Notes: generated from the sequence alone by a model not told the origin. 46,166 nucleotides of DNA from a phage (GCA_017760785.1 GCA_017760785.1_4320.1), one strand, 5' to 3'; shown: positions 39 to 45,675, counted from the stretch's first letter. Numbers and translations: made by a program.

Positions 39-512
39 TTACTCTTTAGCTTTTAGTGCTGCTTCGTTAGCGGCCTTAATCTTGCGCCATGATCGACACT
101 CTGGCTTGGTTGCCAATTCTGCCTCCGTGACAACGCGAAGCATATGACGCTTCTTACACCGTAGTGTAAGAGGCTTTCCGTTACCGTCGAATTGCAGGTC
201 TGGTCGGCAGAATGTGGCGCGAAAACCTTCTCCAGTTCGTTTGTAGTAGTTGTGCGATAGCTGGGCTCCACGTGCGGAAATCATACCACGATTAAACCAC
301 TCCTCTACAGCCTGGGGCGTCACCTTTAGCTGTTTTGCGATATTCGCCTTTGTGCCGAAGAAGTCAAGGAGCATCTCAAGCCGTGCGCGCAACCCAGCTC
401 TTACCTCATCTTTTAAAACGTAGTAGCCTGAGGGTCGTTTTCGTTTCTTTTTGTCTTCAGTCCGGACTGTTCCGTTATTTCCGTTAAGAGTACGCTTATC
501 AACTGCATTCAT
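39..512 (-). CDS. hypothetical Lys/Arg-rich protein, possibly nucleic-acid binding
   Basis: 157-aa ORF; ATG at 512 preceded by GAGGT; divergent from helicase gene. Confidence 0.5.
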   Translation of the reverse strand: MNAVDKRTLNGNNGTVRTEDKKKRKRPSGYYVLKDEVRAGLRARLEMLLDFFGTKANIAKQLKVTPQAVEEWFNRGMISARGAQLSHNYYKRTGEGFRATFCRPDLQFDGNGKPLTLRCKKRHMLRVVTEAELATKPECRSWRKIKAANEAALKAKE

Positions 513-613
513 TTCATTACCTCAATAGCATTTTTTGTTAAAAGTCATTCCGATTTGATGGTAGTATTGTACTCAATTAAACGCTACAAGACAATTTTTA
601 TAGGAATTTAGAT

Positions 614-2608
614 ATGTTGCCTATCGAGAAGCTGGTTGCAAACTTCGATAAAGAAAGAATCAAACAGATTCAGAAAGATTATCAGTTTGGTGAGATAACT
701 CCTTACGAATTCCAGTGCGTAACATTTGATGCAATCGGAAAGGCTATTGGGAAGTATGAGTCTCCATTTATCGCTGACCTTTCCGTATCGGCTGGTAAGA
801 CAATCATTCTTGCTATGATAGGAAAGCGCATGGAGCAGCTTGGTCTTCCTTATATGGTTTTATCTCGCCAGTCAGAGATAATCAGCCAGAACTCAGAAGA
901 GCTTCGAAACTTCGGCATCCGTAATAGCGTCTATTGCGCTGGCCTTAACGTTAAATCAGTTTACTATCCAACCATAGTGGCTAGCGAAGGTACGGCAGCC
1001 AACGGCTTATTTAAGGGGCTTGGTGACTATGTTCCGGCGGTTATCGCTATCGATGAATGTCACATGGTGGATCACATGGATATCGTGGAAGCCGAAGAGA
1101 ATGAAGAAACATTTGAGCAAATGAGCACAAAGAAAGGTGAGATGGTATTTAAGGATGGCATAAATACCGGATTGCTTGGCACTGGTCGTGCGCAGTATAC
1201 GCTAATCATTACTGAAATGAAACGCCGTTGTCGTGAGAAGTACGGTCGCGAGCTTAGGATTTTTGGACTAACTGGAAGCCCGTATCGTAACAACGATCAC
1301 ATAGTGGTTAGCAATCCAAATGTTCGTGGATTCTGGCGCAAAACTGTAATACAAGTACCAACCAATTACCTGGTTGATTTGGGATTCGTGGTACCAACTG
1401 TTTACGGTGAAGTTGGCGATTTGGGTTACGACCTTAGCGAATTTGCGCCAGACGGTAGTGATGGTGTTAAAGACTTCAGCAAGAAAGAAATGGATGCGAT
1501 GCAGGAAAAAATTCATCAAAACCAGTCCATGACTCAAAAGATTATACAGTTCGCAGCCAAGTTTATGGAAACTCGTAACGCAGCACTAGTAACTTGCTCA
1601 GGCAAGCGGCATTGCGAGGAAGCAGCCGCGTCGCTTCCTGAGGGTGTAACCTGGGCTATAGTAACTGACTCTACTGGTGAGAAAAAGCGTCGTGAGATTC
1701 TTTCTGACGCAGCTGAAGGTAAGTATAAATTCATCTTTCAGATTGGTTGCCTCACAACCGGCGTGAACGTTCCGCCATGGGACACGTCAATAATTCTTCG
1801 CAAGGTTGGTAGCATCACGTTACTGATTCAGCTTTTGGGGCGAGGTATGCGAATTCTTAAGAAGAAGCATAAGGAAATGGGAATGGTTAAGGATGATCAC
1901 GTGGTGCTGGACTTCGCTGGTACTCTTGATGACATTGCGGAATTGTACTTTGACCCAATCATAGAGGAAGTGCAGGACCAGAAATTTAAGTCTTCACGCA
2001 AAGGCGGCGATAAGCCAAGAATATGTCAGGCCTGTAGTTACGAGAACTCTCCTTTTGCTCGTCGTTGCAATAACGTAATTGACGGGAAGCGTTGTGAGCA
2101 TTTTTTTACATTTCGCTTATGTGAAGATATAGAGGACCCGCAGACAAAAGTTACTATTAAGAAGGGTTGTGGTGAAAAGAATGATATCGCCGCTAAAAAC
2201 TGCCGATGCTGCGGAGAGATGCTTATTGACCCCAACGCTAATCTGACTGGAAAGATGTATCGCCGTGGTGATTACCTTCGCGTTTATGACTTCCAGATTG
2301 GATTGAGTAAGAATCAAACCGGAATTGTTGTTAAGTACAATATCATGGCTCATAACGGAGAGCGGTTTAATGCTTGGGAGTTCTTTAACCCCGAGTCTGA
2401 CCATCGAGTTTGTGGCGTGCTGTGGAAAAACTTTTGCCTTGCTCATATTGAGAATCGCACAGAGGCAGCACGGATTGGTAGGCTGAAAAATGCCAGGATG
2501 ATTATGACTAACGTAGATAAGTTCCGTGCTCCTGTTCAGGTTACTCATCGCAGGAATGGCAAAGGAAAGGACGTGATCGCGTTTAAGAATTTTGGAGAAT
2601 TATTATGA
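614..2608 (+). CDS. SF2 DNA helicase with C-terminal Cys-rich zinc-ribbon region
   Basis: Walker A SAGKT, DECH box, several CxxC pairs near C-terminus; 664 aa. Confidence 0.8.
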   Translation: MLPIEKLVANFDKERIKQIQKDYQFGEITPYEFQCVTFDAIGKAIGKYESPFIADLSVSAGKTIILAMIGKRMEQLGLPYMVLSRQSEIISQNSEELRNFGIRNSVYCAGLNVKSVYYPTIVASEGTAANGLFKGLGDYVPAVIAIDECHMVDHMDIVEAEENEETFEQMSTKKGEMVFKDGINTGLLGTGRAQYTLIITEMKRRCREKYGRELRIFGLTGSPYRNNDHIVVSNPNVRGFWRKTVIQVPTNYLVDLGFVVPTVYGEVGDLGYDLSEFAPDGSDGVKDFSKKEMDAMQEKIHQNQSMTQKIIQFAAKFMETRNAALVTCSGKRHCEEAAASLPEGVTWAIVTDSTGEKKRREILSDAAEGKYKFIFQIGCLTTGVNVPPWDTSIILRKVGSITLLIQLLGRGMRILKKKHKEMGMVKDDHVVLDFAGTLDDIAELYFDPIIEEVQDQKFKSSRKGGDKPRICQACSYENSPFARRCNNVIDGKRCEHFFTFRLCEDIEDPQTKVTIKKGCGEKNDIAAKNCRCCGEMLIDPNANLTGKMYRRGDYLRVYDFQIGLSKNQTGIVVKYNIMAHNGERFNAWEFFNPESDHRVCGVLWKNFCLAHIENRTEAARIGRLKNARMIMTNVDKFRAPVQVTHRRNGKGKDVIAFKNFGELL

Positions 2609-3024
2609 AAATTACAGATAAAGAAGATTACATTGAGTTTTACCCTGGGCCAGTAAAGTCTTGCCCGAAAGAGGATGAAGAACAAATCTTTTGCTCTGAT
2701 TGGGTTAAGTATAACTACCCAGATATGGTATTTTTCCACTGCGTGAATGAGGGAAAGAAAACCATTGGTCAAGCAAGAAAAGACCAGGCTAAGGGTCTTC
2801 TCAAGGGCGTATCAGACTGCGTATTTATGATTCCAGAGAAATACCGTGGCAACTACTCATTTGGAGCCATAGAGCTAAAGAGGGCTGGGAAAACACAGGC
2901 CATCCCAGTTAGTGATGAACAGAAGTCCTTCCTCAAAAGCGTAAGAGAATCAGGTGGCTTCGCCGCAGTGGCCTACGGGCGGGAGGGTTTTTTATCTGCG
3001 TTTAAAGAAATGATTTCAAAATAG
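2605..3024 (+). CDS. VRR-NUC-like PD-(D/E)xK nuclease
   Basis: ATGA overlap with helicase stop; D...ELK motif; 139 aa. Confidence 0.55.
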   Translation: MKITDKEDYIEFYPGPVKSCPKEDEEQIFCSDWVKYNYPDMVFFHCVNEGKKTIGQARKDQAKGLLKGVSDCVFMIPEKYRGNYSFGAIELKRAGKTQAIPVSDEQKSFLKSVRESGGFAAVAYGREGFLSAFKEMISK

Positions 3025-3064
3025 CACTAATTGCTAAAGACGTTTCGGTGAGTTGGTGTATTAT
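3022..3064 (+). promoter_or_regulatory. motif-type promoter (TAGCACTAATTGCTA, 22 bp, TATTAT)
   Basis: palindrome plus spaced -10; CATCGAAACGA leader follows. Confidence 0.55.
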
Positions 3065-3102
3065 CTATTCATCGAAACGAAACGCACAAAGAGAGAAAGA
3101 AA

Positions 3103-6506: not shown

Positions 6507-7063
6507 AAATGACTAAATTATTTATACTTAATGGCCCAGCTGGAGTTGGTAAGGACACTATAGCGGATATCATGGTTGAGACCGGTGTAGCCAAAGAAAA
6601 GGTATCATTCAAGTCACCAATGTTTAACGTTGCAAAAGGAATGCTATCAAGCGATGAATTTGATGGATTCATCAAGAATTACGACAATAGAGACTATAAG
6701 GAATCACCTCATGGATTTCTTGTCGGTATGACAGTTCGTGAATTTATGATTTGGATTAGCGAGTCTGTAATGAAGCCAGTCTTTGGTGATGATGTTTTCG
6801 GTAAAAGGCTAGCCCAGTCACTTGGTGATGGTTGCTACATTTGCGCTGACGGTGGATTTGCTAGCGAGATTAAGCCACTGATCGACTCTGGTGTTGAGGT
6901 CACGTTAATCAGATTGCATAGGTCAGAGTACACATTTGATGGCGATAGTCGCTCATACATTCACGGTGTGTGCGCAAGAGAAATTGATGTTCGTGTTATT
7001 AGTGGTGATATTGATGGAACATCAGCATTGGTAAGGCACGTAATAAATAGCACTAATTGCTAA
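6503..7063 (+). CDS. P-loop nucleotide/polynucleotide kinase-like protein
   Basis: Walker A GPAGVGKDT; ATGA overlap with phosphatase stop. Confidence 0.55.
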   Translation: MKMTKLFILNGPAGVGKDTIADIMVETGVAKEKVSFKSPMFNVAKGMLSSDEFDGFIKNYDNRDYKESPHGFLVGMTVREFMIWISESVMKPVFGDDVFGKRLAQSLGDGCYICADGGFASEIKPLIDSGVEVTLIRLHRSEYTFDGDSRSYIHGVCAREIDVRVISGDIDGTSALVRHVINSTNC

Positions 7064-7090
7064 GAATTATAAATATCAATGCGGCACAAT
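7048..7090 (+). promoter_or_regulatory. motif-type promoter (TAGCACTAATTGCTAA, weak -10 CACAAT)
   Basis: motif then CATCGAAAAC leader before 7122. Confidence 0.45.
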
Positions 7091-8845: not shown

Positions 8846-10429
8846 TCACCCCAGCAATCGTGGATTAATGTAAACCTTATCACCAATCAGGCACGTATAG
8901 TTTTTCTCATCAAGCATTGGCAGTAAGTGATCTTTAATCTTCGTCATTACTCCAGCTTGGGCCTCGAATGGCTTAACTTTACGAGCAGCTTCATATAATG
9001 AACGAATGCCAACTACTCCCTTCCCATTTTTTCCTTGCTTGATCAGAATATCAATCAGCTTATTCATCTCGGCATTGTCTCCAGCGTGACCGGCGGCGTT
9101 AGCGGATGACAAATAAGTCTTACTCAGTTCCTGGAACATAATTACAGCTTCTTGCATGGTGTCGAGCTCAATCTCTCTGGATTTCTGTGGGCTCCCACCG
9201 TTATGGTTGAACCAGTTACGAACAGTATGAAGTACCGCCGCAATCCTGATGGCCTGCTTATCGAACTTACCCAGAGCGCCGCGCAACATTGTGTGTGAAT
9301 ACTTACCTCCGTCAGCAAGGTGCGGTTCCATTTCCTGGCGTGCTCTGTTGAGGTATTTCATTGCTGAGCTGCTGACTGTCAACTTTACTTCTTGCTCATT
9401 CATTATCTCATGAACTAATCGGAAGTAATCAGCCTTCAGCCCTCCGTCGATAGGCTCGTAAGTTGAATCTCCATTCTCGTCAACGAATACACGCTCGCCC
9501 AGGAATGACTTTTCACGTACAAGCAGGAAACGTTCCGATACACCGATACCTCGCGCACCAGCATTCATGATCGCATTGATTGTCTCATCCTGCGCAATTA
9601 CAGATATACAGCCCATGGCAACGAAACTCATGTTGTTTTCAGCGTTGGCGCGCGCGATAGATACGTTACCCGCATCCCATGCCTTGAGCACGAGCTCGCT
9701 GTTGGTCTTCTTCGAGCCGTCACCGTAAGTCATTCCCAATAGTGAGTTGACGCTCGTTGCCTCATCCGAGATAACCGCAAAGTTGCCCTGGCGGTTGTTT
9801 ATTCGCGCAAGACCTTCAGGTGTGGTATCTGACACTGGAAATACGATATCGCAAAGTTTCTCTAGCTTTTCCTCAAGTTCCTCTTTCTCCTCGAATAGGG
9901 AGGCCATCTCTGACGGAGATTTTTCCTGCTTCATCTCTTTGGATAATGCAGATAGCTTAGCCATAATCTTTTTTCGCTCACGCTTTCGCACTTCATTCAG
10001 CCGCTCAGTCTCGGCAATCATTGGAGCAATGGAGAGTGAGTTAATTGCTGATTTACCAGTCGATGGTGGCTGACTGGTCACGACGTACAAAGAGGTTGGC
10101 TGCTGGGTCCCGTGATACTCAACAGTAAAGCGGCCCAGCATTGCAGCGGAAACACACCCCAGGAAGTGCATGTATGCGGATGACTCAGGAAACTGAACTG
10201 AACGAGCAATGTTGGCTGACAGTTTTCCAACAACATCAATATCATTGCCGAGTGAGATTACAGGATATTTGTCATTTGCAGCATCAATCTCTACTGGCGC
10301 TTTCCAGAATGATTGAGACTGACGATAGCCATTAGCATTAATAGCGACGCGCAAAGGTGGGAGGTTGTCTGCGGAAGCGATTGCCATAACCTGTTCAATA
10401 GATAGTTTATCTTCGTTGAAATCGAACAT
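8846..10429 (-). CDS. P-loop NTPase, DUF3987-like (assignment uncertain)
   Basis: Walker A-like PPSTGKS; GGAGA SD before ATG 10429; own motif promoter; 527 aa. Confidence 0.6.
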   Translation of the reverse strand: MFDFNEDKLSIEQVMAIASADNLPPLRVAINANGYRQSQSFWKAPVEIDAANDKYPVISLGNDIDVVGKLSANIARSVQFPESSAYMHFLGCVSAAMLGRFTVEYHGTQQPTSLYVVTSQPPSTGKSAINSLSIAPMIAETERLNEVRKRERKKIMAKLSALSKEMKQEKSPSEMASLFEEKEELEEKLEKLCDIVFPVSDTTPEGLARINNRQGNFAVISDEATSVNSLLGMTYGDGSKKTNSELVLKAWDAGNVSIARANAENNMSFVAMGCISVIAQDETINAIMNAGARGIGVSERFLLVREKSFLGERVFVDENGDSTYEPIDGGLKADYFRLVHEIMNEQEVKLTVSSSAMKYLNRARQEMEPHLADGGKYSHTMLRGALGKFDKQAIRIAAVLHTVRNWFNHNGGSPQKSREIELDTMQEAVIMFQELSKTYLSSANAAGHAGDNAEMNKLIDILIKQGKNGKGVVGIRSLYEAARKVKPFEAQAGVMTKIKDHLLPMLDEKNYTCLIGDKVYINPRLLG

Positions 10430-11018: not shown

Positions 11019-11050
11019 GCTTGCTTACTCTCTTTCGTTTCGATGAGGTA

Positions 11051-11093
11051 ACTATACAACAAAAGCACCGAAGGGCTTTAGCAATTAGTGCTA
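11051..11093 (-). promoter_or_regulatory. motif-type promoter (TAGCACTAATTGCTAA, 21 bp, TATAGT)
   Basis: minus strand; CATCGAAACGA leader follows. Confidence 0.55.
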
Positions 11094-11471
11094 TACGCCA
11101 TAATCTATCTTAACCAGTTTCCCTTTGTAGTATCCAAAGTTCTTTGGAAAAGCGTCGTACTCAAAGAAATCACGGTCAAGCGTTCTATATTCATCATTAT
11201 CAACGTCATCATATAGCTTTTGCAGGTCGGATTTAAAAAGCTCCTCATTATCAACTGGCTCAGCCTTATGCATCACAACCATTAGGCCGAACCTGTTTGA
11301 GTATGCTATTGGGCACAGGTTCTTGTTATCAACCCCCTTCCATTGGCCCTCAGTCATGTTGCTGAGCATCCCCTGCACAAAGGCCTTCCAGGAATTAAAT
11401 CTCGGGAACTTAATCGCATACTTTTTTGTGATTAGTACAAGCCTGGTCCCACCACTTCTATTTAGTTTCAT
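11091..11471 (-). CDS. hypothetical protein
   Basis: 126-aa ORF with AAGGA SD; stop lies in TAGCAC motif. Confidence 0.5.
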   Translation of the reverse strand: MKLNRSGGTRLVLITKKYAIKFPRFNSWKAFVQGMLSNMTEGQWKGVDNKNLCPIAYSNRFGLMVVMHKAEPVDNEELFKSDLQKLYDDVDNDEYRTLDRDFFEYDAFPKNFGYYKGKLVKIDYGV

Positions 11472-12448: not shown

Positions 12449-12492
12449 ACTATAGCGTCACCACATTAACATGTCTTTAGCAAAAAGTGCCA
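12449..12492 (-). promoter_or_regulatory. variant motif promoter (TGGCACTTTTTGCTAA, TATAGT)
   Basis: minus strand; drives 12227-12421. Confidence 0.5.
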
Positions 12493-12720
12493 TTCGTTAG
12501 ATTTATGGATTGTTGCAGATATTGAAATGATTAACATGATTATTGCACATATAGTAATATTGCTTCCGATGCAATGATTTTTTTGATTGTTGCGAAAAGT
12601 GAAATAAAGTGGTGAGTGAGTGAATGAAAGATGGATGGACTACCATACAAGTTGATTTTGATTCTGTCCGAGCCGCTTTGCGTATACGCGTTATGAAAGT
12701 TATGCCGTGTAGATAAACCT

Positions 12721-13020
12721 TTCCGCGGAAATTCATCCACGCCGTACCACGCCAGGTTACGCCATAGTTACACTATAATATCTATATATAACAACCTCTT
12801 AGTATTATTATTATTATTATAAATATTACTATGTATATCATGTAACCAATATGCCGGAGGGGGTCGATAGTTTTTTCTATGAAAATGACAATTTCTATAT
12901 ATATAAGGATAGGTGTATACCCTCCGCGTTTTCCGCGGAAATTCATCTACAGGCAAATTACACGAGCTATAGCTGGGCTGGCACGCCAAAAAACGTAACC
13001 AGCGCCAATATAAACACAAG
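12721..13020. repeat. AT-rich divergent control element, copy 1
   Basis: 17-bp direct repeat TTCCGCGGAAATTCATC at 12721 and 12931; (TAT)6 at 12803-12820; ~70 percent identical to 39790-40110. Confidence 0.7.
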
Positions 13021-13096
13021 ATAACACTTGATAACGTGTAGACGTGTGTTATTATGGGTTCACCTTAACGAATGGGAACCAATCAGGAGTAATAAA

Positions 13097-13947: not shown

Positions 13948-14145
13948 AAGATGAAACTCGCTTGCCTCGTTAGGGATAATGTTTATGTCAACCCGGCAAT
14001 CCTGGAGGAAGATTGGGAACCTAACTTCAAAGCCTACGAAGGTGAGCATCCTAGTAGACTACCATACCACTTAATGTACAGTGAGGACTAGGTGGGGATG
14101 GCGATTGAGCTCTACCGGAAAGCTAAATCAATCCTTAGCGGTGAA

Positions 14146-14188
14146 TAGCATGAATTGGTAAATCTTCCGCGAGTCCATTTGCTATAGT
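14146..14188 (+). promoter_or_regulatory. variant motif promoter (TAGCATGAATTGGTAA, 21 bp, TATAGT)
   Basis: same geometry before 14216 ORF. Confidence 0.45.
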
Positions 14189-14215
14189 GGACTCATTGAA
14201 GCGAAACAACAAATC

Positions 14216-14619: not shown

Positions 14620-14880
14620 ATGAGCAAGTACGATCGTGAGATTATTGGCATTGATGGCACGGTAACAACAATAGATGTTTATCGTGTCCTTGATGCTTTT
14701 TGCGTATCTGACCCAGCAACGCAACACGCGATAAAGAAGATGCTTTGCATGGGCTTGCGTGGTCACAAGGATTACCTTACAGATCTTAATGACTCGATTG
14801 ATTCACTACATAAGGCTAAAGAGCTTTACGGGCAGAAGATGATTCATGAATCAGATAAATCAGTTCTGAGTGGCAAATAG
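14620..14880 (+). CDS. hypothetical protein
   Basis: 86-aa ORF; stop TAG is first triplet of next motif. Confidence 0.45.
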   Translation: MSKYDREIIGIDGTVTTIDVYRVLDAFCVSDPATQHAIKKMLCMGLRGHKDYLTDLNDSIDSLHKAKELYGQKMIHESDKSVLSGK

Positions 14881-14920
14881 CACGAATTGCTAAACGCGAT
14901 CAGGAGGGTTTTGTTATAGT
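14878..14920 (+). promoter_or_regulatory. motif-type promoter (TAGCACGAATTGCTAA, 21 bp, TGtTATAGT)
   Basis: archetype copy; TG-extended -10. Confidence 0.6.
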
Positions 14921-15615: not shown

Positions 15616-15754
15616 TTTACATTCACACATACTACACAGGCAAGTTCAACAGCGTTAGCATGTTCGGCTACATGAGAAGAAGAGCGATGCGATTAAGCAA
15701 TATGAGGTTCTTGGAGGTGTAGTTATTGAGGCAATGAAAACACAAAACATTAAA

Positions 15755-15797
15755 TAGCGCGAATTGCTAAAACAGAATCGGGGTAATTTGGTATAGT
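15755..15797 (+). promoter_or_regulatory. motif-type promoter (TAGCGCGAATTGCTAA, TGgTATAGT)
   Basis: CCATCGAAACGAA leader follows. Confidence 0.6.
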
Positions 15798-15827
15798 TAC
15801 CCCATCGAAACGAACGAGGAATCAGAA

Positions 15828-16393: not shown

Positions 16394-16533
16394 GCTTCAC
16401 TGAATACGTGATCGCATGTGAACGACTGGTCTTTGATATGAAGGCTTTTCACTGGTTCATCATTAAGGATTTAATCAAGCCGTACAAGCAAGGCGTGACA
16501 CCTGAGGCTTTTGTTAAGTCATTCTATAAATAG
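16390..16533 (+). CDS. hypothetical 47-aa protein
   Basis: ATGA overlap with previous ORF; ends in TAG of motif at 16531. Confidence 0.35.
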   Translation: MSFTEYVIACERLVFDMKAFHWFIIKDLIKPYKQGVTPEAFVKSFYK

Positions 16534-16573
16534 CACTAATTGCTAAACGTAGTTGCCACGGATGGCATATAAT
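16531..16573 (+). promoter_or_regulatory. motif-type promoter (TAGCACTAATTGCTAA, TATAAT)
   Basis: standard spacing before 16604 ORF. Confidence 0.55.
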
Positions 16574-17330: not shown

Positions 17331-17408
17331 GCTCCGCTAGCTCAATGGGATAGCAGCAACGACCTTCTAAGTCGTAGGTTGCTGGTTCGAATCCAGTGCG
17401 GAGCGCCA
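17331..17408 (+). tRNA. tRNA-Arg (anticodon TCT)
   Basis: acceptor stem GCTCCGC/GCGGAGC, anticodon stem ACGAC/GTCGT with loop CTTCTAA, T-loop TTCGAAT, 3' GCCA; D-arm atypical. Confidence 0.7.
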
Positions 17409-26657: not shown

Positions 26658-26700
26658 TAGCACTTTTTGATAAATCACTTATTCAACTTTGATGTATAGT
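26658..26700 (+). promoter_or_regulatory. motif-type promoter (TAGCACTTTTTGATAA, TATAGT)
   Basis: drives moron 26734-26982; CATCGAAACGAAA leader. Confidence 0.55.
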
Positions 26701-26733
26701 TAACTCATCGAAACGAAATGAGAGATTAAAGAA

Positions 26734-27690: not shown

Positions 27691-30669
27691 ATGGCAACAA
27701 ATGAATTAGCCGGAATCACACTAGCCGTAGATGTATCGCAAGTAGACAGGGGTACACAATCCCTACAGAAGTTCAGGCAGGCAAACCAACAGGCTGCTTC
27801 TGGTATTAGTGAGTTCGTTAATGCCGAGCAGGTTGCTAAAAACCAGGCTAGAGATACAGCGCGCGCACTTGCTGAGCAAAAGGCATCTTTGGCTAAATTG
27901 CAAACTGCCATTGATCCAACTGCGGCAAAGTTCCGTAAACTCCAGGAGGCAGCGGTAGGTCTTGATAAGGCTTTCGCGGCTGGCGTAGTTCCTGATGAGG
28001 AGTTTTTCCGGTTAGGTGAGGCACTTGAAACGCAGAACGCAAAACTTGCTCGCTCACGTGCGGCGCTAACTGAAGAAGGAAGAGCGGCGGCACAGTCTGC
28101 TAAGGATAAGGCAAAAGCAAAGGCTGAAGCGGATAGATTCATTGCATCACTTGAGCGACAGGCTCAGGCTGCAACATTGACGCGTGAGGAGTACTTAAAG
28201 TTACAAGCGGCTCAGCTTGGCGTTAGTTCCCAGGCTGCACCCATCATTGACAGAATCGCCGACGCATCACAGAAGGCAAACACCCAGTTAATTGCTCAGA
28301 GTAAGGCTTTTCAGAAATCAGGATTAAGCGCGGGGCAATACAAGAACGCGATTTCTCAGCTGCCAGCGCAGATTACTGATATAGGTACCTCTCTCGCTGG
28401 TGGCATTCCGATTTGGCTTATTGCAATTCAGCAAGGTGGGCAAATTAAGGATGCTTTTGGTGGTATTGGTAACACCTTTAGATTCGCGCTTGCAGCCTTA
28501 AACCCATTCAATGTAGCTGTTGGTGTTTTGGGTGGGGTACTTGTAGCTCTTGGTGTTGGTGCGGCTCAGGCTGAAAGTGAATTCAGAGCATTAAACTCCG
28601 CAATTGCGTTCTCCAACAACTCTACAATCGCATCAATCTCGCAGGTTAGAGAGTTGGTTAGCTCTGTTTCTGATGCAACAGGTGCCACTAGGGGACTTGT
28701 GACTAGTATCGCAACAATCCTTATTGAGCAGGGGAATCTTACGCTAACGCAGATTGACAAGATTACCAAATCAACCGCCAGATGGGCGCAGCTTACCGGA
28801 AAGGATGCAAAGGAGATTACTGGTTACTATAACCAGATTGCAAGCGACCCAATCCAGGGTTTAGTTGATTTGGATAAGCGCTTTAACTTCCTCACGCAGG
28901 GGCAGTTGACGACAATCGAAAACCTGAGAAAGACAAAGGGAGATGTTGAGGCCGTTACCGCCGCAATTGACATTTTCAGCAAGTCGCAGGAAGCCAACCT
29001 TAACGACATAGCAGCGCAGTTAACTCCACTTGAGTTGGCATGGAATGATTTTAGGAAGTACATCTCTGATATCTGGGATGCAATTAGCCGCAGAACGGTA
29101 GGCGCTTTAAACTTGTTTGTTGATGTAATCGCCGGAACAATTGAGCAAATCAAGGTCTTCATTAACCAGGGCGACGTGCTGATTGGTGAATTTGTAGTTA
29201 GCGCAACCCGGGCATTGCAGAACATTCCTGGTCTTGATGGCGTTGGTGATGATGTTATCAAGGGTCAGCAAAAGATTATCGATGCGGCTAAGAAACAAAA
29301 CCTTGAGCTAGAAAAGTCTATCAGGGAGCGAGATTCAAGAATCAGGGAAGGAGAGCTTGGTTACATTACTCGCAGAGAAAATCAGAATACCAATGAGCAG
29401 TCAGGGACTGATGAGGAGTTCTCAAAAAGGAAGAAGGCACTTCAGGATGAGCTTGATGCGATCAAGAAGAACAGGAAAGAAGAAAATGGTAGAGTTAAGG
29501 AGCAAAGAGACCTTACAATTGGTTACGAATCTGGCGTGTTGGCGCTCCAGGCTCAGCTCAAGGTTATTCAGGAAAACAGGGATATCGGCGCAGTAATAAG
29601 CAATGAGCGCAAGCAGTACCTTCAGGAAGAGGCTAAATTCAGGATCCTTGAGCAAAGGCAAATTGATGGCTCAATTACCAAAGAGCAAGCAAGACTTCTC
29701 ATTGAAAAGGATAAAGTTCTTGAGTTAGCTAGACAGAAAGCTGAGCTAGGTGATCAGATTGTTTTGCAGGAGCGCGCCAATAAGCTGGCTGAAGATAACC
29801 GCAAGAAGATTCTTCAGATTAACAACGAAGCAAGTAACATAGATTTGGGTGCTGGCCTGTCTTCTCGGGAACAGCAAAGAGCTAAAGAGATTCAGGCTCT
29901 TCAGTCCAATCAGATTAATGCTGGTGGTTCTGTTGGTGATGTTGATTTTAAGCAGTTGCTGGAGGCAAGGAAGGAGTACTACAAGCAGGAGGATAATCTT
30001 AGGTCTGATTGGCAATCCGGTGTAACATCCACTCTCGCTGACTTGACTGAGAAGTACACTGACTACAACCAGATTGCTAAGGATTTAACTGTTGCAGCAT
30101 TCGACGGGATTACAGACCAGATCACGAATCTTGTGACCACTGGTGAGACTAATTTCAGAGATTTCACAGCAAGCATCCTCAAAATGATTGCGAAGATTGC
30201 AACTCAGTTACTTTTGGTTAAGGCTATAGAATCAACATTAACTAGTTTTGGTGGTGGAGGAGGTAACGCATTTGGCTCTTTTGCGTCTGCTATAGGTTTT
30301 GCTGGCGGTGGCTACACTGGTGATGGCGGCAAGTATCAGCCAGCAGGAACGGTTCATCGTGGAGAGTTTGTATTCACAAAGGAAGCAACAAGCCGAATTG
30401 GTGTTAAGAACCTATACGCACTAATGAAGGGTTATGCAAACGGCGGCGCTGTTGGTGGTCCATCTGGTTATGCAAATGGCGGCTTTGTTTCTGGTGGTAC
30501 AGATGTTAATGTTAGCGGCATCACCGTTAACGTTAATGGTGGCGTTGGTAGCGACCCAGAACAAGCCAAGGCACTGCAAAGCGGAGTCAAGGCAATCGTA
30601 GCGGAAGAGATTGCGCAGTCTTTCCAGCAGGGTGGAAGGGCTTATGCTTACTTGAGAGGTTTTAACTAA
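27691..30669 (+). CDS. tail tape measure protein
   Basis: 992 aa, coiled-coil rich, Gly-rich C-terminus. Confidence 0.85.
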   Translation: MATNELAGITLAVDVSQVDRGTQSLQKFRQANQQAASGISEFVNAEQVAKNQARDTARALAEQKASLAKLQTAIDPTAAKFRKLQEAAVGLDKAFAAGVVPDEEFFRLGEALETQNAKLARSRAALTEEGRAAAQSAKDKAKAKAEADRFIASLERQAQAATLTREEYLKLQAAQLGVSSQAAPIIDRIADASQKANTQLIAQSKAFQKSGLSAGQYKNAISQLPAQITDIGTSLAGGIPIWLIAIQQGGQIKDAFGGIGNTFRFALAALNPFNVAVGVLGGVLVALGVGAAQAESEFRALNSAIAFSNNSTIASISQVRELVSSVSDATGATRGLVTSIATILIEQGNLTLTQIDKITKSTARWAQLTGKDAKEITGYYNQIASDPIQGLVDLDKRFNFLTQGQLTTIENLRKTKGDVEAVTAAIDIFSKSQEANLNDIAAQLTPLELAWNDFRKYISDIWDAISRRTVGALNLFVDVIAGTIEQIKVFINQGDVLIGEFVVSATRALQNIPGLDGVGDDVIKGQQKIIDAAKKQNLELEKSIRERDSRIREGELGYITRRENQNTNEQSGTDEEFSKRKKALQDELDAIKKNRKEENGRVKEQRDLTIGYESGVLALQAQLKVIQENRDIGAVISNERKQYLQEEAKFRILEQRQIDGSITKEQARLLIEKDKVLELARQKAELGDQIVLQERANKLAEDNRKKILQINNEASNIDLGAGLSSREQQRAKEIQALQSNQINAGGSVGDVDFKQLLEARKEYYKQEDNLRSDWQSGVTSTLADLTEKYTDYNQIAKDLTVAAFDGITDQITNLVTTGETNFRDFTASILKMIAKIATQLLLVKAIESTLTSFGGGGGNAFGSFASAIGFAGGGYTGDGGKYQPAGTVHRGEFVFTKEATSRIGVKNLYALMKGYANGGAVGGPSGYANGGFVSGGTDVNVSGITVNVNGGVGSDPEQAKALQSGVKAIVAEEIAQSFQQGGRAYAYLRGFN

Positions 30670-30712
30670 TAGCACAAAATGGTAAAGCCAAAAGGATTTG
30701 GCTTGCTATAAT
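30670..30712 (+). promoter_or_regulatory. motif-like promoter (TAGCACAAAATGGTAA, TATAAT)
   Basis: immediately after tape-measure stop; drives HNH gene. Confidence 0.45.
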
Positions 30713-38921: not shown

Positions 38922-38960
38922 TTTATATACCTCATTAAGTTTTTTCGTTTCGATGGAGTA

Positions 38961-39003
38961 ATAGTACCGCATCCTTGCGGATTGTCTTTAGCAAACCGTG
39001 CTA
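38961..39003 (-). promoter_or_regulatory. motif-type promoter (TAGCACGGTTTGCTAA, 21 bp, TACTAT)
   Basis: minus strand; CCATCGAAACGAAAAA leader before Cor-like gene. Confidence 0.5.
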
Positions 39004-39677
39004 TTCGCAATAAATACAGCTCTTGCAAATCCACGAGGTGTAAGGCTGCGAATTACCTTTGTTTTCTTGCTCTTGCCTCCCAGCTTCTTGTATTGTTCAG
39101 AGAATCCATCGTCAACGACCACATTGATCGCCTCAGGCCAATTAAAGCCATTACCTGACCAGATGCATGTCTTCTTAGGATATGCGTCGCGAGGCTTTAT
39201 TAGGTCGCTAAAAAACGGGTGTAAATCATCTTCAGGCAAGTATCCACCAAACTCGTAAGGGTGGAGTGTATTGTCAGGTTTTCGCCAAAGAGATGAAAGC
39301 ACGCTAATTGGGTTCTCAATCATATAAGGTACGCCGTACTTCTCAGCCAGGTTAAAAGCAACCTTGCAAGTCTCTGCCGCCTCAATTTGAAAATTAGGAT
39401 TGGCCAGGCGCTTGCGATCAAAGTGTCTTGACCCACTCACGGCTAAATCAGTGCATGGGGGGAATGCCATGATAAAATCAGGCTTCACATCAAAATAAAA
39501 ATTGGCATCTATCCATGCGTTAACGTAGGTGATGTTCTCATGCTCAAATTTTGCATTTAAGTCACCATAGCTCCCGTGGTCAGACTCATCAAAGTTGAAG
39601 CAGTAGCAAGTATGTCCGGCTTCAGCCCAATCCTTTACAGCCAGACCAGAACCATCAAATAAAGACCAGATAACCAT
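38988..39677 (-). CDS. compact DNA C5-cytosine methyltransferase-like protein
   Basis: FDGSG, FPPCT, ENP motifs at C5-MTase-like spacing; ATG 39677 (alternative TTG 39710 lies inside the -10). Confidence 0.5.
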   Translation of the reverse strand: MVIWSLFDGSGLAVKDWAEAGHTCYCFNFDESDHGSYGDLNAKFEHENITYVNAWIDANFYFDVKPDFIMAFPPCTDLAVSGSRHFDRKRLANPNFQIEAAETCKVAFNLAEKYGVPYMIENPISVLSSLWRKPDNTLHPYEFGGYLPEDDLHPFFSDLIKPRDAYPKKTCIWSGNGFNWPEAINVVVDDGFSEQYKKLGGKSKKTKVIRSLTPRGFARAVFIANSTVC

Positions 39678-39711
39678 TTTTAAATCCTCTATCGTTGCTT
39701 GTGTGACCAAC

Positions 39712-39751
39712 TATACCAGGTTTTGCGGATTAGTTTTAGCTATTCGTGCCA
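39712..39751 (-). promoter_or_regulatory. variant motif promoter (TGGCACGAATAGCTAA, 20 bp, TGgTATAGT)
   Basis: minus strand; spacer shares AATCCGCAA with 38961-39003 promoter. Confidence 0.5.
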
Positions 39752-39789
39752 TTGCATACACGTAACCGTTGTAACTAGATGTATACAAT

Positions 39790-40110
39790 CTCATCCGCGG
39801 AAAATGATATACGCGATATTACGCCAATTTACGCATTGGTTACATTAAAATATCTATATATATCAACACTTTACTCTTATTATTATTATTATATATATTA
39901 CTGTGTATATCATGTAACTACTTCTATAGAGTGTTCCGGTTATAATTTTCTAATATGTACATTTATACAGTATCTAGCGACAAGCATACCAATGCACCAA
40001 CCCCCGCGAGAAATGGTATACACTATATACACACTGGTTACATTGAGCTATGCCTCGGATGGGATGCCAAAAAGCGTAACTAACGCCAATATCTACACAT
40101 AATTACAATG
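39790..40110. repeat. AT-rich divergent control element, copy 2
   Basis: shares ATATCTATATATA, (TAT)5 at 39878-39892, TATTACTGTGTATATCATGTAAC and GCCAAAAAGCGTAAC...CGCCAATAT blocks with copy 1. Confidence 0.7.
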
Positions 40111-40135
40111 ATTCACACGTAAGTCTGAATCAACG

Positions 40136-40179
40136 ATTGGATAAACCAATTGGACTGTCTATGGTGCTGAATATATAGT
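40136..40179 (+). promoter_or_regulatory. alternative palindrome ATTGGATAAACCAAT upstream of TATAGT
   Basis: perfect 5-N5-5 inverted repeat at same distance from -10 as TAGCA palindromes. Confidence 0.45.
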
Positions 40180-40218
40180 TAACCCATCGAAAGCAAACAA
40201 CCACAGAGAGATACAGAA

Positions 40219-42013: not shown

Positions 42014-42014
42014 A

Positions 42015-42057
42015 TAGCACGAATCGCTAAAGACAAAATTAAAAGGTGGGGTATGAT
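42015..42057 (+). promoter_or_regulatory. motif-type promoter (TAGCACGAATCGCTAA, TATGAT)
   Basis: after dam stop; precedes erf region. Confidence 0.5.
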
Positions 42058-44663: not shown

Positions 44664-44688
44664 AATGTAAACCCCATATTTTGATTTA

Positions 44689-44704
44689 TAGCACGAATTG
44701 CTAA
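44689..44704 (-). promoter_or_regulatory. palindrome copy TAGCACGAATTGCTAA, 25 nt from tail-fibre ATG
   Basis: no room for standard -10 plus leader; may indicate leaderless start or other role. Confidence 0.35.
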
Positions 44705-44730
44705 AATTCATTCTACCATCTTCCAGGCAA

Positions 44731-44752
44731 TAAAAAACCTCCCTAGGGAGGT
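44731..44752 (-). terminator. minus-strand terminator after primase gene
   Basis: CCTCCC/GGGAGG palindrome with A-run on plus strand. Confidence 0.55.
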
Positions 44753-45675
44753 TAGTTTAGCAAGTCTTTGGCTTTGTACACTTTCTTGCGTATTCCTGTT
44801 TTAAATGACTTCCCGTCATTAGGTATCACCACATCAACATTGCGATCATCAGCGGCAATAAGTATATCAGTATCACAATAACGGCAAGCAACCCTAAACT
44901 TCCTAGACTTGTCTCTGTGCATAACCATTTCCATATTGTAACAGGAGAAAGCCACAAACACCTCGCGACCGCCAGTAGCCAGATGAATACGTACGCCATC
45001 AATAAAATTATCAACAACATAAGTGTAACCATCAACCTGCCTAGAGCCAATGACAGCAACAGAATCACGAGTGTAATCACCAGCAAGGAACTTAACATTT
45101 GAATCTCCATCAATAAACATTAAGTTGCAGAAATCATCACCAAGCCCATCCTCGTAAACCATCGAGCACGGTACGGCATGAATCATTGAGCCATCCTTAG
45201 CTATGCCAACATCGAATCCATCATCAAGATAAATACCCTCGTATGTTGTGAGTGGGCTTGATTCAACTCTCTCGGTACGCTGCATGACCTCAAGCACTTT
45301 TTCATGATCTACCTGGGCGCCCATTTTGTAACGCTGAGTTCTTGATGCCTGCTTGTTTGCCTTAACTATAACCTCAATTGGTGTTAAGTTCAGCCAGTCA
45401 CCAAGCAAATTTACTGAATCGGCGAAGGACAATCCAGTGCACTTCATGACCCATCCTATACCGGAGTCACTTCCGCATTTCGAACAAACTGCCGCGCCAT
45501 TTCCTTTTTCACTGCCTATTTCGTCGGTAAACCTGAATCTGTCAGTGCCAAAGCAGTATGGGCATGGTCCGTGCTTCTTACTTAGGTGTCTATCATTCCA
45601 ACCAAGTTCCTTTGCATAAAATGATTTCCACAATCCGGCCATCTTAGGTATAACTTCATTCTTATCGTAATTCAT
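44752..45675 (-). CDS. DNA primase-like protein with zinc-binding motif
   Basis: CPYC...CSKC zinc-ribbon-like motif followed by acidic core; 307 aa. Confidence 0.55.
   Translation of the reverse strand: MNYDKNEVIPKMAGLWKSFYAKELGWNDRHLSKKHGPCPYCFGTDRFRFTDEIGSEKGNGAAVCSKCGSDSGIGWVMKCTGLSFADSVNLLGDWLNLTPIEVIVKANKQASRTQRYKMGAQVDHEKVLEVMQRTERVESSPLTTYEGIYLDDGFDVGIAKDGSMIHAVPCSMVYEDGLGDDFCNLMFIDGDSNVKFLAGDYTRDSVAVIGSRQVDGYTYVVDNFIDGVRIHLATGGREVFVAFSCYNMEMVMHRDKSRKFRVACRYCDTDILIAADDRNVDVVIPNDGKSFKTGIRKKVYKAKDLLN

What the first reader, a model, noticed from the sequence alone, without database searches (positions are those of the whole stretch)
12721..13020. Two diverged copies of a ~300-bp AT-rich element at both divergent-transcription junctions
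12721-13020 and 39790-40110 share ordered blocks: CCGCGGAAA, ATATCTATATATA-CAAC, a (TAT)5-6 microsatellite, TATTACT-TGTATATCATGTAAC and GCCAAAAA(A/G)CGTAAC...CGCCAATAT. Both lie where a leftward gene block meets a rightward one (12421 vs 13097; 39677 vs 40219). Copy 1 also has a 17-bp direct repeat TTCCGCGGAAATTCATC (12721 and 12931) and an inverted GGAGGG/CCCTCC pair. AT-rich cores with iterated short repeats between divergent promoters are typical of replication origins or regulator-binding arrays, and a duplicated pair could mediate recombination or mark module boundaries.
Basis: seen in the sequence. Interest (0 to 1): 0.6.

Follow-up and report, generated by a model that had tools for sequence, protein, structure and literature searches.

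The report
Paired origin-like elements in T1-like phage
The two AT-rich look-alike stretches are real, non-coding, strongly conserved copies of one element found in all T1-like phages examined. They are the best candidates yet for these phages' unidentified replication origins, though a purely gene-regulatory role is not excluded.

Summary
12708-13030 and 39780-40110 align colinearly (about 330 bp, 68% identity, E 6e-40). Their left 126 bp (82.5%) is the strongest internal repeat in the window.

The window is a complete Rtp-like Drexlerviridae genome. All 11 Drexlerviridae genomes examined (four subfamilies, including T1 and TLS) carry both elements at the same two junctions. In every one, the two element cores are the two least stable 80-bp duplex stretches in the genome.

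Each element has helically phased (9-11 bp) arrays of a short unit (TTACGC, TTACAC, GTTACA, TATACA) in both orientations. These flank a TA-rich core holding a trinucleotide tract and, in this subfamily (copy 2 here), an IHF-consensus site. The unit sequence changes between lineages, but changes in both copies together.

More distant phages share the MCM-like (DUF3987) helicase. In 6 of 6 of them, one element of the same design sits beside the helicase operon.

No conserved ORF, RNA structure, Rfam family or DnaA box was found.

Best reading: replication-origin-type assembly sites that probably also influence the flanking divergent promoters. This is inferred, not shown. The main rival is a purely transcriptional control region; a packaging role fits copy 1 only.

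The parts
12721..12737 (.). Copy 1, left box TTCCGCGGAAATTCATC (contains the palindrome TTCCGCGGAA). It is repeated exactly at 12931-12947.
   Evidence: The box is present in copy 1 only in the window and Rtp; G8, IME542 and Msk carry CCCTCCGTAGGAAT at this position.
12738..12773 (+). Copy 1, array A: four phased units CACGCC, CACGCC, TACGCC and TTACAC, starting 10, 10 and 11 bp apart.
   Evidence: GC-containing 4-mers recur at 10-11 bp 9 times, against 1.0 +/- 1.1 in shuffles (0 of 200 reach it).
12774..12831 (.). Copy 1, TA-rich core: ATATCTATATATAACAAC followed by (TAT)6 at 12803-12820.
   Evidence: The least stable 80-bp duplex window of the whole genome starts at 12764: dG -78.0, against a genome mean of -107.6, sd 5.9. 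Microsatellite.
12832..12846 (-). Copy 1, inverted unit pair TGTATATCATGTAAC. On the minus strand this reads GTTACA and TATACA, 10 bp apart.
   Evidence: Identical in copy 2; the motif occurs only twice in the window.
12931..12965 (+). Copy 1, second box (12931-12947) plus short array B (CTACAG, TTACAC).
   Evidence: It corresponds to copy 2 at 40002-40043 in the alignment.
12985..13037 (+). Copy 1, right block GCCAAAAAACGTAACCAGCGCCAATAT plus array C (AAACAC, TAACAC, TAACGT at 10-bp spacing). Array C overlaps the -35 of the rightward promoter-like site at 13028-13055.
   Evidence: Promoter-like site TTGATA-16-TATTAT with an upstream TG, 10 of 12 matches.
39761..39787 (-). Copy 2, outer-left array L (GTAAC, GTAAC, GTATAC on the + strand, i.e. 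units pointing left). It lies directly upstream of the leftward promoter-type module at about 39710-39760.
   Evidence: Nearly invariant across 14 phages.
39793..39803 (.). Copy 2, box ATCCGCGGAAA.
   Evidence: Conserved in Braunvirinae and Rogunavirinae.
39810..39845 (+). Copy 2, array A: TACGCG, TACGCC, TACGCA and GTTACA, starting 10, 10 and 11 bp apart.
   Evidence: The units are invariant and the spacers vary across 14 phages.
39846..39903 (.). Copy 2, TA-rich core: ATATCTATATATATCAAC, an exact match to the IHF consensus WATCAANNNNTTR at 39861-39873, and (TTA)5 at 39877-39892.
   Evidence: Second least stable 80-bp window of the genome (starts 39840, dG -79.0). IHF consensus match. This 136-bp stretch is 95-97% identical in phages whose flanking DNA is 83-88% identical.
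39904..39918 (-). Copy 2, inverted unit pair TGTATATCATGTAAC.
   Evidence: With GGTTACA at 39838 it forms an invariant inverted repeat around the core.
40002..40043 (+). Copy 2, degenerate second box (CCCCGCGAGAA) plus array B (TATACAC, TATACAC, GGTTACA).
   Evidence: (family D9).
40066..40117 (+). Copy 2, right block GCCAAAAAGCGTAACTAACGCCAATAT plus array C (CTACAC, ATTACA, ATTCAC). Array C ends about 35 bp upstream of the rightward promoter-like site at 40151-40179.
8846..10429 (-). Gene for the DUF3987 protein, predicted to be an MCM-like AAA+ helicase with a C-terminal winged-helix domain. It is a candidate origin-acting protein and lies in the leftward operon that starts at copy 1.
39..512 (-). 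Gene for a Cro-like helix-turn-helix protein next to the primase gene. It is an alternative candidate for the protein that binds the repeats.
   Evidence: Pfam P22_Cro 8.8e-6, below the family cut-off. PHROG 'transcriptional regulator' 4e-83.

Best explanation
Each element is a non-coding site of about 330-370 bp where a large protein-DNA complex most likely assembles. I think the two are the phage's replication origins, or paired cis-acting replication sites.

Proposed mechanism:
1. A phage-encoded DNA-binding protein occupies the helically phased TTACGC / TTACAC / GTTACA / TATACA units. These lie in opposite orientations on either side of the core. Candidate binders are the winged-helix end of the MCM-like helicase (8846-10429) and the Cro-like HTH protein (39-512).
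2. The TA-rich core is the easiest DNA in the genome to melt. It carries a trinucleotide tract and, in copy 2 here and in most Braunvirinae copies, an IHF-consensus bend site.
3. The core is opened with help from negative supercoiling generated by the two divergent promoters on either side.
4. The MCM-like helicase and the P4-alpha-type primase (44752-45675) then load, and host DNA polymerase III copies the DNA.
5. The outer arrays adjoin or overlap the flanking promoters, so the same bound protein probably also tunes early transcription.

Shown: the anatomy, the conservation, the uniqueness in the genome, the duplex instability, the co-variation between the two copies, and the linkage to the helicase operon.
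Inferred: protein binding, melting, helicase loading and any initiation of replication.
For: 1. Homology, not composition: E 6e-40 between the copies, and the top internal repeat of the window.
2. Both copies are present at the same two junctions in 11 of 11 Drexlerviridae genomes from four subfamilies. The copy 2 core is 95-97% identical where flanking DNA is 83-88% identical.
3. In all 11 genomes the two least stable 80-bp windows are the two cores: dG -72 to -81.5, against a mean near -108 (sd about 5.8), with the third-ranked site at -87 to -90.
4. Arrays of 3 or more units at 9-11 bp spacing occur almost only inside the elements, with 0.1-0.35 expected per shuffled genome. Pooled autocorrelation peaks at 9-10 bp and again at 18-20 bp.
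5. In 14 phages the units are invariant while the spacers vary.
6. The two copies co-vary by lineage. The core is TCTATATATAWCAAC in both Braunvirinae copies and TCCTTATATAWWAAGG in both Jk06 copies. TLS uses GTGAACA/GGAACA-type units in both copies.
7. In 6 of 6 distant phages with a homologous helicase (35-53% identity), the least stable site of the 8-21 kb locus is an element of the same design beside the helicase operon. One of these is not at a divergent junction.
8. The phage encodes its own MCM-like helicase with a winged-helix domain and a primase homologous to the P4 alpha primase domain (1e-13).
9. The literature held here reports that no origin has been found in T1-like phages (PMC11447400, PMC7718038).
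Against: - There is no experimental evidence of initiation or protein binding, and none could be obtained here.
- The outer arrays sit where transcription activators or repressors usually bind. The elements head the operons for helicase and for RecE/Erf/SSB, so a purely regulatory role explains much of the same data.
- Two non-Drexlerviridae contigs carry the identical 19-bp core between other repeat arrays directly upstream of small-terminase genes. The same design can therefore serve DNA packaging.
- By homology, copy 1 lies about 150-250 bp from the genome ends mapped in T1 and TLS.
- The IHF consensus is missing from T1, TLS and Jk06, and the trinucleotide tract is not universal.
- Comparing candidate binding proteins across lineages did not single one out.
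Confidence: 0.45

Rival explanations
1. Purely transcriptional control regions. The phased arrays are operator or enhancer sites for a phage regulator, such as the Cro-like HTH protein. That protein switches the two divergent early operon pairs on or off. The TA-rich core supplies a bend, an UP-like element or extra promoters. The region was duplicated when an ancestral replication-recombination operon was split.
For: - Outer arrays lie directly upstream of, or overlap, the flanking promoter-like sites on both sides.
- Both elements head DNA-metabolism operons. In distant phages one element heads a single helicase-primase-exonuclease-annealase-SSB operon.
- Sigma-70-like hexamer pairs occur in the cores. 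One relative's record annotates two in-silico predicted promoters there.
- Direct repeats at 10-bp spacing are typical of winged-helix transcription factors (own knowledge).
Against: - The flanking operons already have their own promoter modules outside the element.
- Promoter-like hits in the cores are not significantly above the shuffled expectation: 6-8 found against 3-3.7 +/- 1.8.
- Indels of 1, 3 and 4 nt in the (TAT)n tract would disrupt a promoter spacer.
- About 15 units spread over 350 bp, plus the most meltable DNA in the genome, is more than typical operators need.
- In locus L033 the element follows the helicase gene's terminator-like hairpin (read by eye, not scanned) and is not at a divergent junction.
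- The third divergent junction in the window (512-614) lacks the element.
Confidence: 0.3
2. DNA-packaging recognition sites (pac-type). The arrays bind small terminase around an IHF-type bend, as in lambda cosB or P1 pac.
For: - Record position 1 of T1 (terminal repeat annotated 1-2800) and of TLS, whose ends were mapped experimentally, lies about 200 bp left of the copy 1 core. The Rtp record starts at window 12553.
- The identical 19-bp core, flanked by other repeat arrays, lies just upstream of terS genes in two unrelated contigs.
- Repeat arrays flanking an IHF site is the known design of lambda cosB and P1 pac (own knowledge).
Against: - Copy 2 is 27 kb from copy 1, is the better conserved of the two, and lies far from any mapped end.
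- TLS restriction mapping found a single submolar pac fragment (PMC11447400).
- terS is 5 kb from copy 1.
- A separate repeat motif, GATTGTTGC twice at 12508 and 12585, lies at the position homologous to the T1 end. It is absent from copy 2.
- In the distant phages the element tracks the helicase operon, with terminase genes absent or 5 kb away in two loci.
Confidence: 0.1
3. Genes for non-coding RNAs or small proteins.
For: - Copy 1 folds somewhat better than shuffled controls (z -2.9 and -3.9).
- An ORF of 94-107 codons spans copy 2 in five of eight relatives. Some records annotate hypothetical proteins there.
Against: - Copy 2, the conserved copy, shows no excess folding (z -0.9 to +1.0).
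- RNAalifold on 13 sequences gives -13 kcal/mol over 349 columns. The best-conserved helices simply pair invariant inverted units, and the few compensatory changes are scattered lineage differences.
- No Rfam match at E <= 1. No intrinsic terminators.
- The ORF is frame-broken in three relatives and absent from copy 1.
- The extra folding of copy 1 comes from its lineage-specific palindromic 17-mer pair.
Confidence: 0.03
4. Recombination substrates or module-boundary markers with no other function.
For: - Cargo genes immediately left of copy 2 vary between relatives.
- The box shared by both copies only in the window and Rtp lineage suggests exchange between the copies.
Against: - Gene order between the copies is conserved in all 11 genomes.
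- Selection acts on short phased units and on a melt-prone core, not on overall length or identity.
- Distant relatives keep a single copy.
Confidence: 0.05

Closest known systems
Satellite phage P4 ori plus crr (two cis-acting replication regions sharing the same short repeats, bound by the alpha primase-helicase)
   Same: - Two separated non-coding loci in one genome carry the same short repeat in both orientations. The P4 record annotates type-1 repeats in both ori and crr, about 4.7 kb apart.
- The window's primase is homologous to the P4 alpha primase domain (BLASTP 1e-13).
   Different: - There is no sequence similarity between the elements.
- The helicase here is MCM-like (DUF3987), not the D5-type helicase of P4 alpha, and it is a separate protein from the primase.
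- The copies are 27 kb apart.
- The repeat unit differs from P4's TGTTCACC (sequence quoted from own knowledge, not read here).
- Whether both loci are required in cis is untested.
Iteron-type origins with an AT-rich region and an IHF site (plasmids R6K gamma and pSC101; phage lambda ori) - own knowledge
   Same: - Direct repeats in helical phase lie next to an easily melted AT-rich segment.
- An exact IHF-consensus site lies inside the AT-rich part of copy 2.
   Different: - The units are much shorter (5-7 bp at 10-bp spacing, against 17-22 bp iterons).
- They lie on both sides of the core and in three or four separate arrays.
- No initiator gene of a known Rep, O or Pi family is present.
- There are no DnaA boxes.
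Lambda cosB and P1 pac (terminase-binding repeats flanking an IHF site) - own knowledge
   Same: - Repeat arrays in opposite orientation lie around an IHF-type bend.
- Copy 1 lies near the mapped genome end of relatives.
- The identical core occurs next to terS genes in two unrelated contigs.
   Different: - There are two copies per genome, and the better conserved one is far from any mapped end.
- The core is extremely melt-prone.
- The element is linked to the helicase operon in distant relatives.
Bacterial oriC basal unwinding system: DnaA boxes plus DnaA-trios (Richardson et al. 2016) - own knowledge
   Same: Double-strand recognition boxes lie beside a tract with 3-nt periodicity inside the unwinding region, in a system that uses an AAA+ protein.
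   Different: - No DnaA boxes are present.
- The tract is (TAT)n, (TAA)n, (AAC)n or (TAG)n rather than the DnaA-trio consensus.
- It is not immediately adjacent to the boxes.
- It is absent as a perfect repeat in T1 and TLS.
- This is a conceptual resemblance only.
The 21-nt intergenic repeat of T1-like phages, aaATAGCACnnnTTGnTAAAA (TLS paper, PMC11447400)
   Same: It is also a conserved intergenic repeat of unknown function in the same genomes. Copies flank both elements at 12472-12496 and about 39735-39760.
   Different: It is a different sequence, occurs as single copies at the start of many operons, and is not arrayed or AT-rich. It is not the feature studied here.

Membership tests
Iteron/DUE-type replication origin | Three or more short direct repeats in helical phase | tested here: met
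   Copy 1: units at 12738, 12748, 12758 and 12769. Copy 2: units at 39810, 39820, 39830 and 39840, plus arrays B and C. Periodicity exceeds 200 of 200 shuffles.
Iteron/DUE-type replication origin | An adjacent, easily unwound AT-rich segment | tested here: met
   The two cores are the two least stable 80-bp windows in all 11 genomes.
Iteron/DUE-type replication origin | Repeats bound by a cognate initiator protein | not testable with these tools
   Only candidates were identified: the MCM-like helicase with a winged-helix domain and the HTH protein. Cross-lineage comparison was uninformative.
Iteron/DUE-type replication origin | Replication initiates there, or the element supports autonomous or phage-dependent replication | not testable with these tools
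   No sequencing reads or experiments were available. The papers held here state that the origin of T1-like phages is unknown.
Iteron/DUE-type replication origin | Host-factor sites (DnaA boxes, IHF) | tested here: inconclusive
   No TTWTNCACA DnaA box in either element. An exact IHF consensus lies in the copy 2 core; copy 1 has one mismatch. The IHF consensus is absent from T1, TLS and Jk06.
P4-type ori/crr pair | The same repeat type occurs at two separated non-coding loci | tested here: met
   Shared enriched words in both copies, changing together between lineages. P4 annotation for comparison.
P4-type ori/crr pair | An alpha-type fused primase-helicase with an origin-binding domain | tested here: not met
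   The primase domain is homologous (1e-13). The helicase is a separate MCM-like protein with no detectable similarity to P4 alpha.
pac/cos packaging site | Coincides with the mapped packaging start, and is a single site per genome | tested here: not met
   There are two copies. Copy 2 is far from any end. The position homologous to the T1 and TLS ends is about 12500-12600, left of copy 1, and has its own repeat. The ends of this particular phage were not mapped.
Structured non-coding RNA | A known family match, excess folding energy, or covariation | tested here: not met
Protein-coding gene | An ORF conserved in frame across relatives and across both copies | tested here: not met
   Indels of 1 and 4 nt occur within the element.
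Sigma-70 promoter region | Conserved -35 and -10 hexamers at fixed spacing | tested here: inconclusive
   Weak hexamer pairs occur in the cores, 6-8 found against 3-3.7 expected. Their spacing depends on the variable microsatellite. No transcription start-site data exist.

The most novel reading that the evidence does not exclude
T1-like phages, and a wider group of phages sharing the DUF3987 MCM-like helicase, use a previously unrecognised type of origin. In it, the helicase or a partner protein reads lineage-specific 5-7-bp boxes set in helical phase. It then melts a TA-rich core whose 3-nt-periodic tract guides single-strand binding, a logic parallel to the bacterial DnaA-box plus DnaA-trio system. 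Drexlerviridae would carry two such origins, created when the ancestral replication-recombination operon was split. One of the two adjoins the packaging start.
Probability: 0.25. Interest if true: 0.75.

Novelty: new variant of a known kind. Interest (0 to 1): 0.55.

Why it matters
T1 is one of the seven classical T phages, and Drexlerviridae are common therapeutic candidates and notorious laboratory and fermentation contaminants. Their replication origin has nonetheless never been located. A 2024 re-analysis of TLS states that no iterons exist anywhere in that genome (PMC11447400).

This work gives exact coordinates for two conserved candidate sites per genome. It also gives a recognisable signature for them: the two least stable duplex sites, flanked by phased repeats. 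The same design sits beside the MCM-like helicase gene in more distant phages.

That makes the question directly testable by marker-frequency sequencing, footprinting and deletion. It also offers a handle for engineering or disabling these phages. If the elements turn out to be regulatory instead, they still define the control regions of the early DNA-metabolism operons.

Tried and rejected
- Rfam at gathering and at permissive thresholds, on the window and on five relatives: only the tRNA was found.
- Folding z-scores and RNAalifold: no conserved structure.
- Six-frame ORF conservation: none.
- DnaA boxes: none in the elements. GATC sites: none in the elements, but only about 1.3 are expected.
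- GC skew follows transcription direction, so it says nothing about replication.
- BLAST of copy 2 against plasmids and E. coli genomes: no match.
- P4 alpha against the DUF3987 protein: no similarity. Sequence search of the PDB with the DUF3987 protein: nothing significant.
- Identifying the binding protein by comparing divergence of the HTH protein, MCM-like helicase, primase, RadD-like helicase and small terminase between lineages with different repeat types: uninformative.
- The search for related loci with the flanking proteins returned few loci, so whole genomes were fetched instead.
- Literature searches for a T1-like origin or for transcript maps found nothing relevant. The Rtp genome paper and the T1 genome paper are not held, so an earlier mention of these regions cannot be excluded.
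- The LexA-box and OmpR-site resemblances I noted while reading were judged from memory only and did not hold up on alignment by eye. They are not claimed.

Full report
WHAT THE WINDOW IS

The 46,166-bp window is a complete, circularly permuted genome of an Rtp-like phage (Drexlerviridae, Braunvirinae).
- The best database matches to the two junction regions searched are vB_Ec-G8 and Rtp, at about 87-88% identity.
- Gene order matches Rtp, G8 and IME542.
- The HNH gene at the right end (45672-46151) and the regulator gene at the left end (39-512) are neighbours in IME542. The window therefore closes on itself.

CHECK OF THE OBSERVATION

The two regions align colinearly over about 330 bp at 68% identity (pairwise E 6e-40). 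The left 126 bp (12722-12846 against 39794-39918) are 82.5% identical. In a whole-window self-comparison they are by far the strongest internal repeat: E 1.6e-24, with the next at 1e-6.

Several of the shared words occur nowhere else in the genome:
- all three CCGCGG sites;
- both ATATCTATATATA copies;
- both TGTATATCATGTAAC copies;
- the only two perfect trinucleotide repeats of 4 or more units.

Both regions lie between divergent gene blocks. The similarity is homology, not shared AT-richness.

ANATOMY

Both copies sit between the promoter-type modules of the flanking operons, not on top of them.
- Leftward modules: about 12449-12496 and about 39710-39760. Each contains the family-typical ATAGCAC...TTGCTAAA repeat and a TATAGT hexamer.
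- Rightward promoter-like sites: 13028-13055 and 40151-40179.

Inside, each copy is built from a 5-7-bp unit (TACGCN, TTACAC, GTTACA, TATACA) arranged in arrays with 9-11-bp spacing. Copy 2, read left to right, contains:
- a leftward-pointing array (39761-39787);
- a palindromic box (39793-39803);
- a four-unit rightward array (39810-39845, spacing 10, 10, 11);
- a 58-bp TA-rich core (39846-39903) with ATATCTATATATATCAAC, an exact IHF-consensus match (39861-39873) and (TTA)5;
- an inverted pair of units (39904-39918);
- a variable spacer;
- a second degenerate box and a three-unit array (40002-40043);
- a conserved block with an inverted unit (40066-40092);
- a third three-unit array (40094-40117).

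Copy 1 has the same order. Its units are CACGCC, CACGCC, TACGCC and TTACAC, and its third array overlaps the -35 of the rightward promoter.

The element also contains an internal duplication about 209 bp apart (box plus array).

Arrays of three or more such units are essentially confined to the elements in every genome tested, against 0.1-0.35 expected per shuffled genome. An unbiased autocorrelation of GC-containing 4-mers peaks at 9-10 bp and again at 18-20 bp.

CONSERVATION

I fetched ten further whole Drexlerviridae genomes from four subfamilies:
- Braunvirinae: Rtp, G8, IME542, Msk, A110b, T145P1 and 12397V;
- Rogunavirinae: Jk06;
- Tunavirinae: T1;
- Tempevirinae: TLS.

All carry both elements at the same two junctions. 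One lies between the two early gene blocks, next to the genome end of the T1 and TLS records. The other lies just upstream of the recE-erf-ssb genes: between the cor/lipoprotein genes and recE in most genomes, and after the tail-fibre gene in TLS.

Copy 2 is the better conserved. Its 136-bp left part is 95-97% identical in phages whose surrounding DNA is 83-88% identical, and it was found in 112 records. None of the listed records annotates an origin there.

In a 14-phage alignment the array units are invariant while the spacers between them vary. The (TAT)n tract shows indels of 1, 3 and 4 nt. That pattern is the footprint of protein-binding sites, not of a gene.

THE MOST TELLING RESULTS

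1. In all 11 genomes, the two least stable 80-bp duplex windows in the entire genome are the two cores. Nearest-neighbour dG is -72 to -81.5 kcal/mol, against a genome mean near -108 (sd about 5.8). The third-ranked site is always far behind, at -87 to -90.

2. The two copies change together between lineages.
   - Both Braunvirinae copies have TCTATATATAWCAAC where both Jk06 copies have the palindrome TCCTTATATAWWAAGG.
   - TLS uses GTGAACA/GGAACA-type units in both copies instead of TTACRC.
   - This is what one expects if one lineage-specific protein reads both loci, although exchange between the copies would also produce it.

3. The design extends beyond the family. I searched with the DUF3987 protein (8846-10429), which lies in the leftward operon starting at copy 1, and fetched six distant phage contigs whose homologue is 35-53% identical.
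   - In 6 of 6, the least stable site of the 8-21-kb locus is in the intergenic region flanking the helicase operon.
   - Each has a TATATA-rich core flanked by lineage-specific short repeats: TTCGCCC, CCCCA or CTTACA.
   - Three have a trinucleotide microsatellite: (TAA)9, (AAC)11 and (TAG)4.
   - In one (L033) the element follows the helicase gene and is not at a divergent junction.
   - In these phages helicase, primase, second helicase, exonuclease, annealase and SSB form one operon behind a single element. In Drexlerviridae that operon is split. Two of the three pieces keep an element copy: copy 1 heads the piece with the helicase, and copy 2 heads the piece with recE, erf and ssb.

THE REPLICATION PROTEINS

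- The DUF3987 protein models confidently (mean pLDDT 89).
- The primase (44752-45675) is homologous to the primase domain of P4 alpha (1e-13).
- A Cro-like HTH protein (39-512) sits next to the primase.
- I identified no DNA polymerase gene among the products annotated in relatives.

The phage therefore brings its own initiation and unwinding machinery, which implies a phage-specific origin somewhere in the genome. The papers held here say that origin has not been found (PMC7718038, PMC11447400).

WHAT IT IS NOT

- Not a conserved ORF.
- Not a structured RNA: no Rfam match even at E <= 1, no excess folding for copy 2, and no coherent covariation.
- No DnaA boxes.
- No intrinsic terminators.
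- No relatives in plasmids or E. coli chromosomes.

BEST EXPLANATION AND ITS LIMITS

The best-supported reading is that these are origin-type assembly sites. The supporting features are:
- phased boxes on both sides of the most meltable DNA in the genome;
- a host bend site in this subfamily;
- a position between divergent promoters, which would feed negative supercoils into the core (twin-domain model, own knowledge).

The nearest precedent for two loci sharing one repeat type is P4 ori plus crr. However, the P4-type fused primase-helicase criterion is not met, so this is an analogy, not membership.

I put this reading at about 0.45, because three observations cut the other way:
- The outer arrays are exactly where transcription factors act. 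Both elements head DNA-metabolism operons, so a purely regulatory function (0.3) explains much of the data. The two roles may well coexist, as in many plasmid and phage origins.
- The identical 19-bp core occurs in two unrelated viral contigs between other repeat arrays, directly upstream of small-terminase genes. The same architecture is also that of lambda cosB and P1 pac (own knowledge).
- Copy 1 lies about 200 bp from the position homologous to the genome ends of T1 and TLS.

Packaging cannot be the shared function. Copy 2 is far from any end and is the better conserved copy. TLS shows a single pac fragment. A distinct repeat, GATTGTTGC at 12508 and 12585, marks the end-homologous region and is missing from copy 2. 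Copy 1 may nevertheless cooperate with packaging.

NOVELTY

The general kind, phased repeats plus an unwinding element, is well known. The following I could not find described:
- the paired, family-wide arrangement;
- the very short units spread over three or four arrays;
- the recurrent trinucleotide tract;
- the link to an MCM-like phage helicase.

Noticed in passing
window 12505-12600 (GATTGTTGC at 12508 and 12585): A pair of GATTGTTGC motifs 77 bp apart lies left of copy 1. Jk06 has the same pair at the same spacing. T1 has GATGTGATTGTTGC twice, and position 1 of its record (start of the annotated 2.8-kb terminal repeat) falls between them. The Rtp record starts at window 12553. This is a candidate packaging-start (pac) region, distinct from the element.
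   Followed up: partly
window 3021-3038, 7047-7064, 14145-14162, 14877-14894, 15754-15771, 16530-16547, 30669-30686, 42014-42031, 44688-44705; minus-strand copies at 11073-11097, 12472-12496, 38983-39007: This is the family of the 21-nt repeat AAATAGCACnAATTGCTAAA, which the TLS paper describes as unexplained. A TATAGT-type hexamer follows about 22 nt after TTGCTA, too far for TTGCTA to be an ordinary -35. The repeat may therefore be a separate recognition element upstream of a weak -35.
   Followed up: partly
window 3056-3082, 14180-14206, 15789-15815, 26692-26718, 40171-40197; inverted copies at 11033-11063, 38944-38968: A conserved leader, TATAGTTAnCnCATCGAAACGAAA, directly follows the -10-like hexamer of many operons (up to 94% identity between copies). 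It may be a shared 5' untranslated signal.
   Followed up: no
[not shown]
   Followed up: yes
L047 7900-8080 and L037 540-700 (IMG/VR contigs of 60.7 kb and 7.7 kb): The exact 19-mer AATATCTATATATATCAAC occurs in two apparently non-Drexlerviridae contigs. In L047 it sits between three GTGAAGACC units and three inverted copies. In L037 it sits between ACTAGGAAA repeats. In both it lies just upstream of small-terminase genes, preceded in L047 by a NusG-like gene.
   Followed up: partly
window 38988-39677 (-), and the equivalent position in relatives: The slot immediately left of copy 2 holds different cargo in different relatives. This window and JeanPiccard have a C5 cytosine methyltransferase, G8 an anti-repressor, CEB_EC3a a DNA-binding protein, and Rtp nothing. 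It looks like a hot spot for gene insertion.
   Followed up: partly
window 17331-17408 (+): A tRNA-Arg gene (anticodon TCT) lies upstream of the terminase genes, as reported for other T1-like phages.
   Followed up: no
L028 9140-9560; L029 9240-9625; L030 270-580; L033 11130-11500: The elements of the distant phages use G/C-run repeats at 10-11-bp spacing: TTCGCCC/GGGCGAA in L028 and CCCCA/GGGGT in L029, L030 and L033. The box sequence is therefore highly lineage-specific while the TATATA core is kept.
   Followed up: partly
window 512-614: The third divergent junction of the genome, between the HTH-primase operon and the RadD-like helicase operon, is only about 100 bp long. It has no AT-rich element or phased repeats, so divergent transcription alone does not predict the element.
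   Followed up: yes
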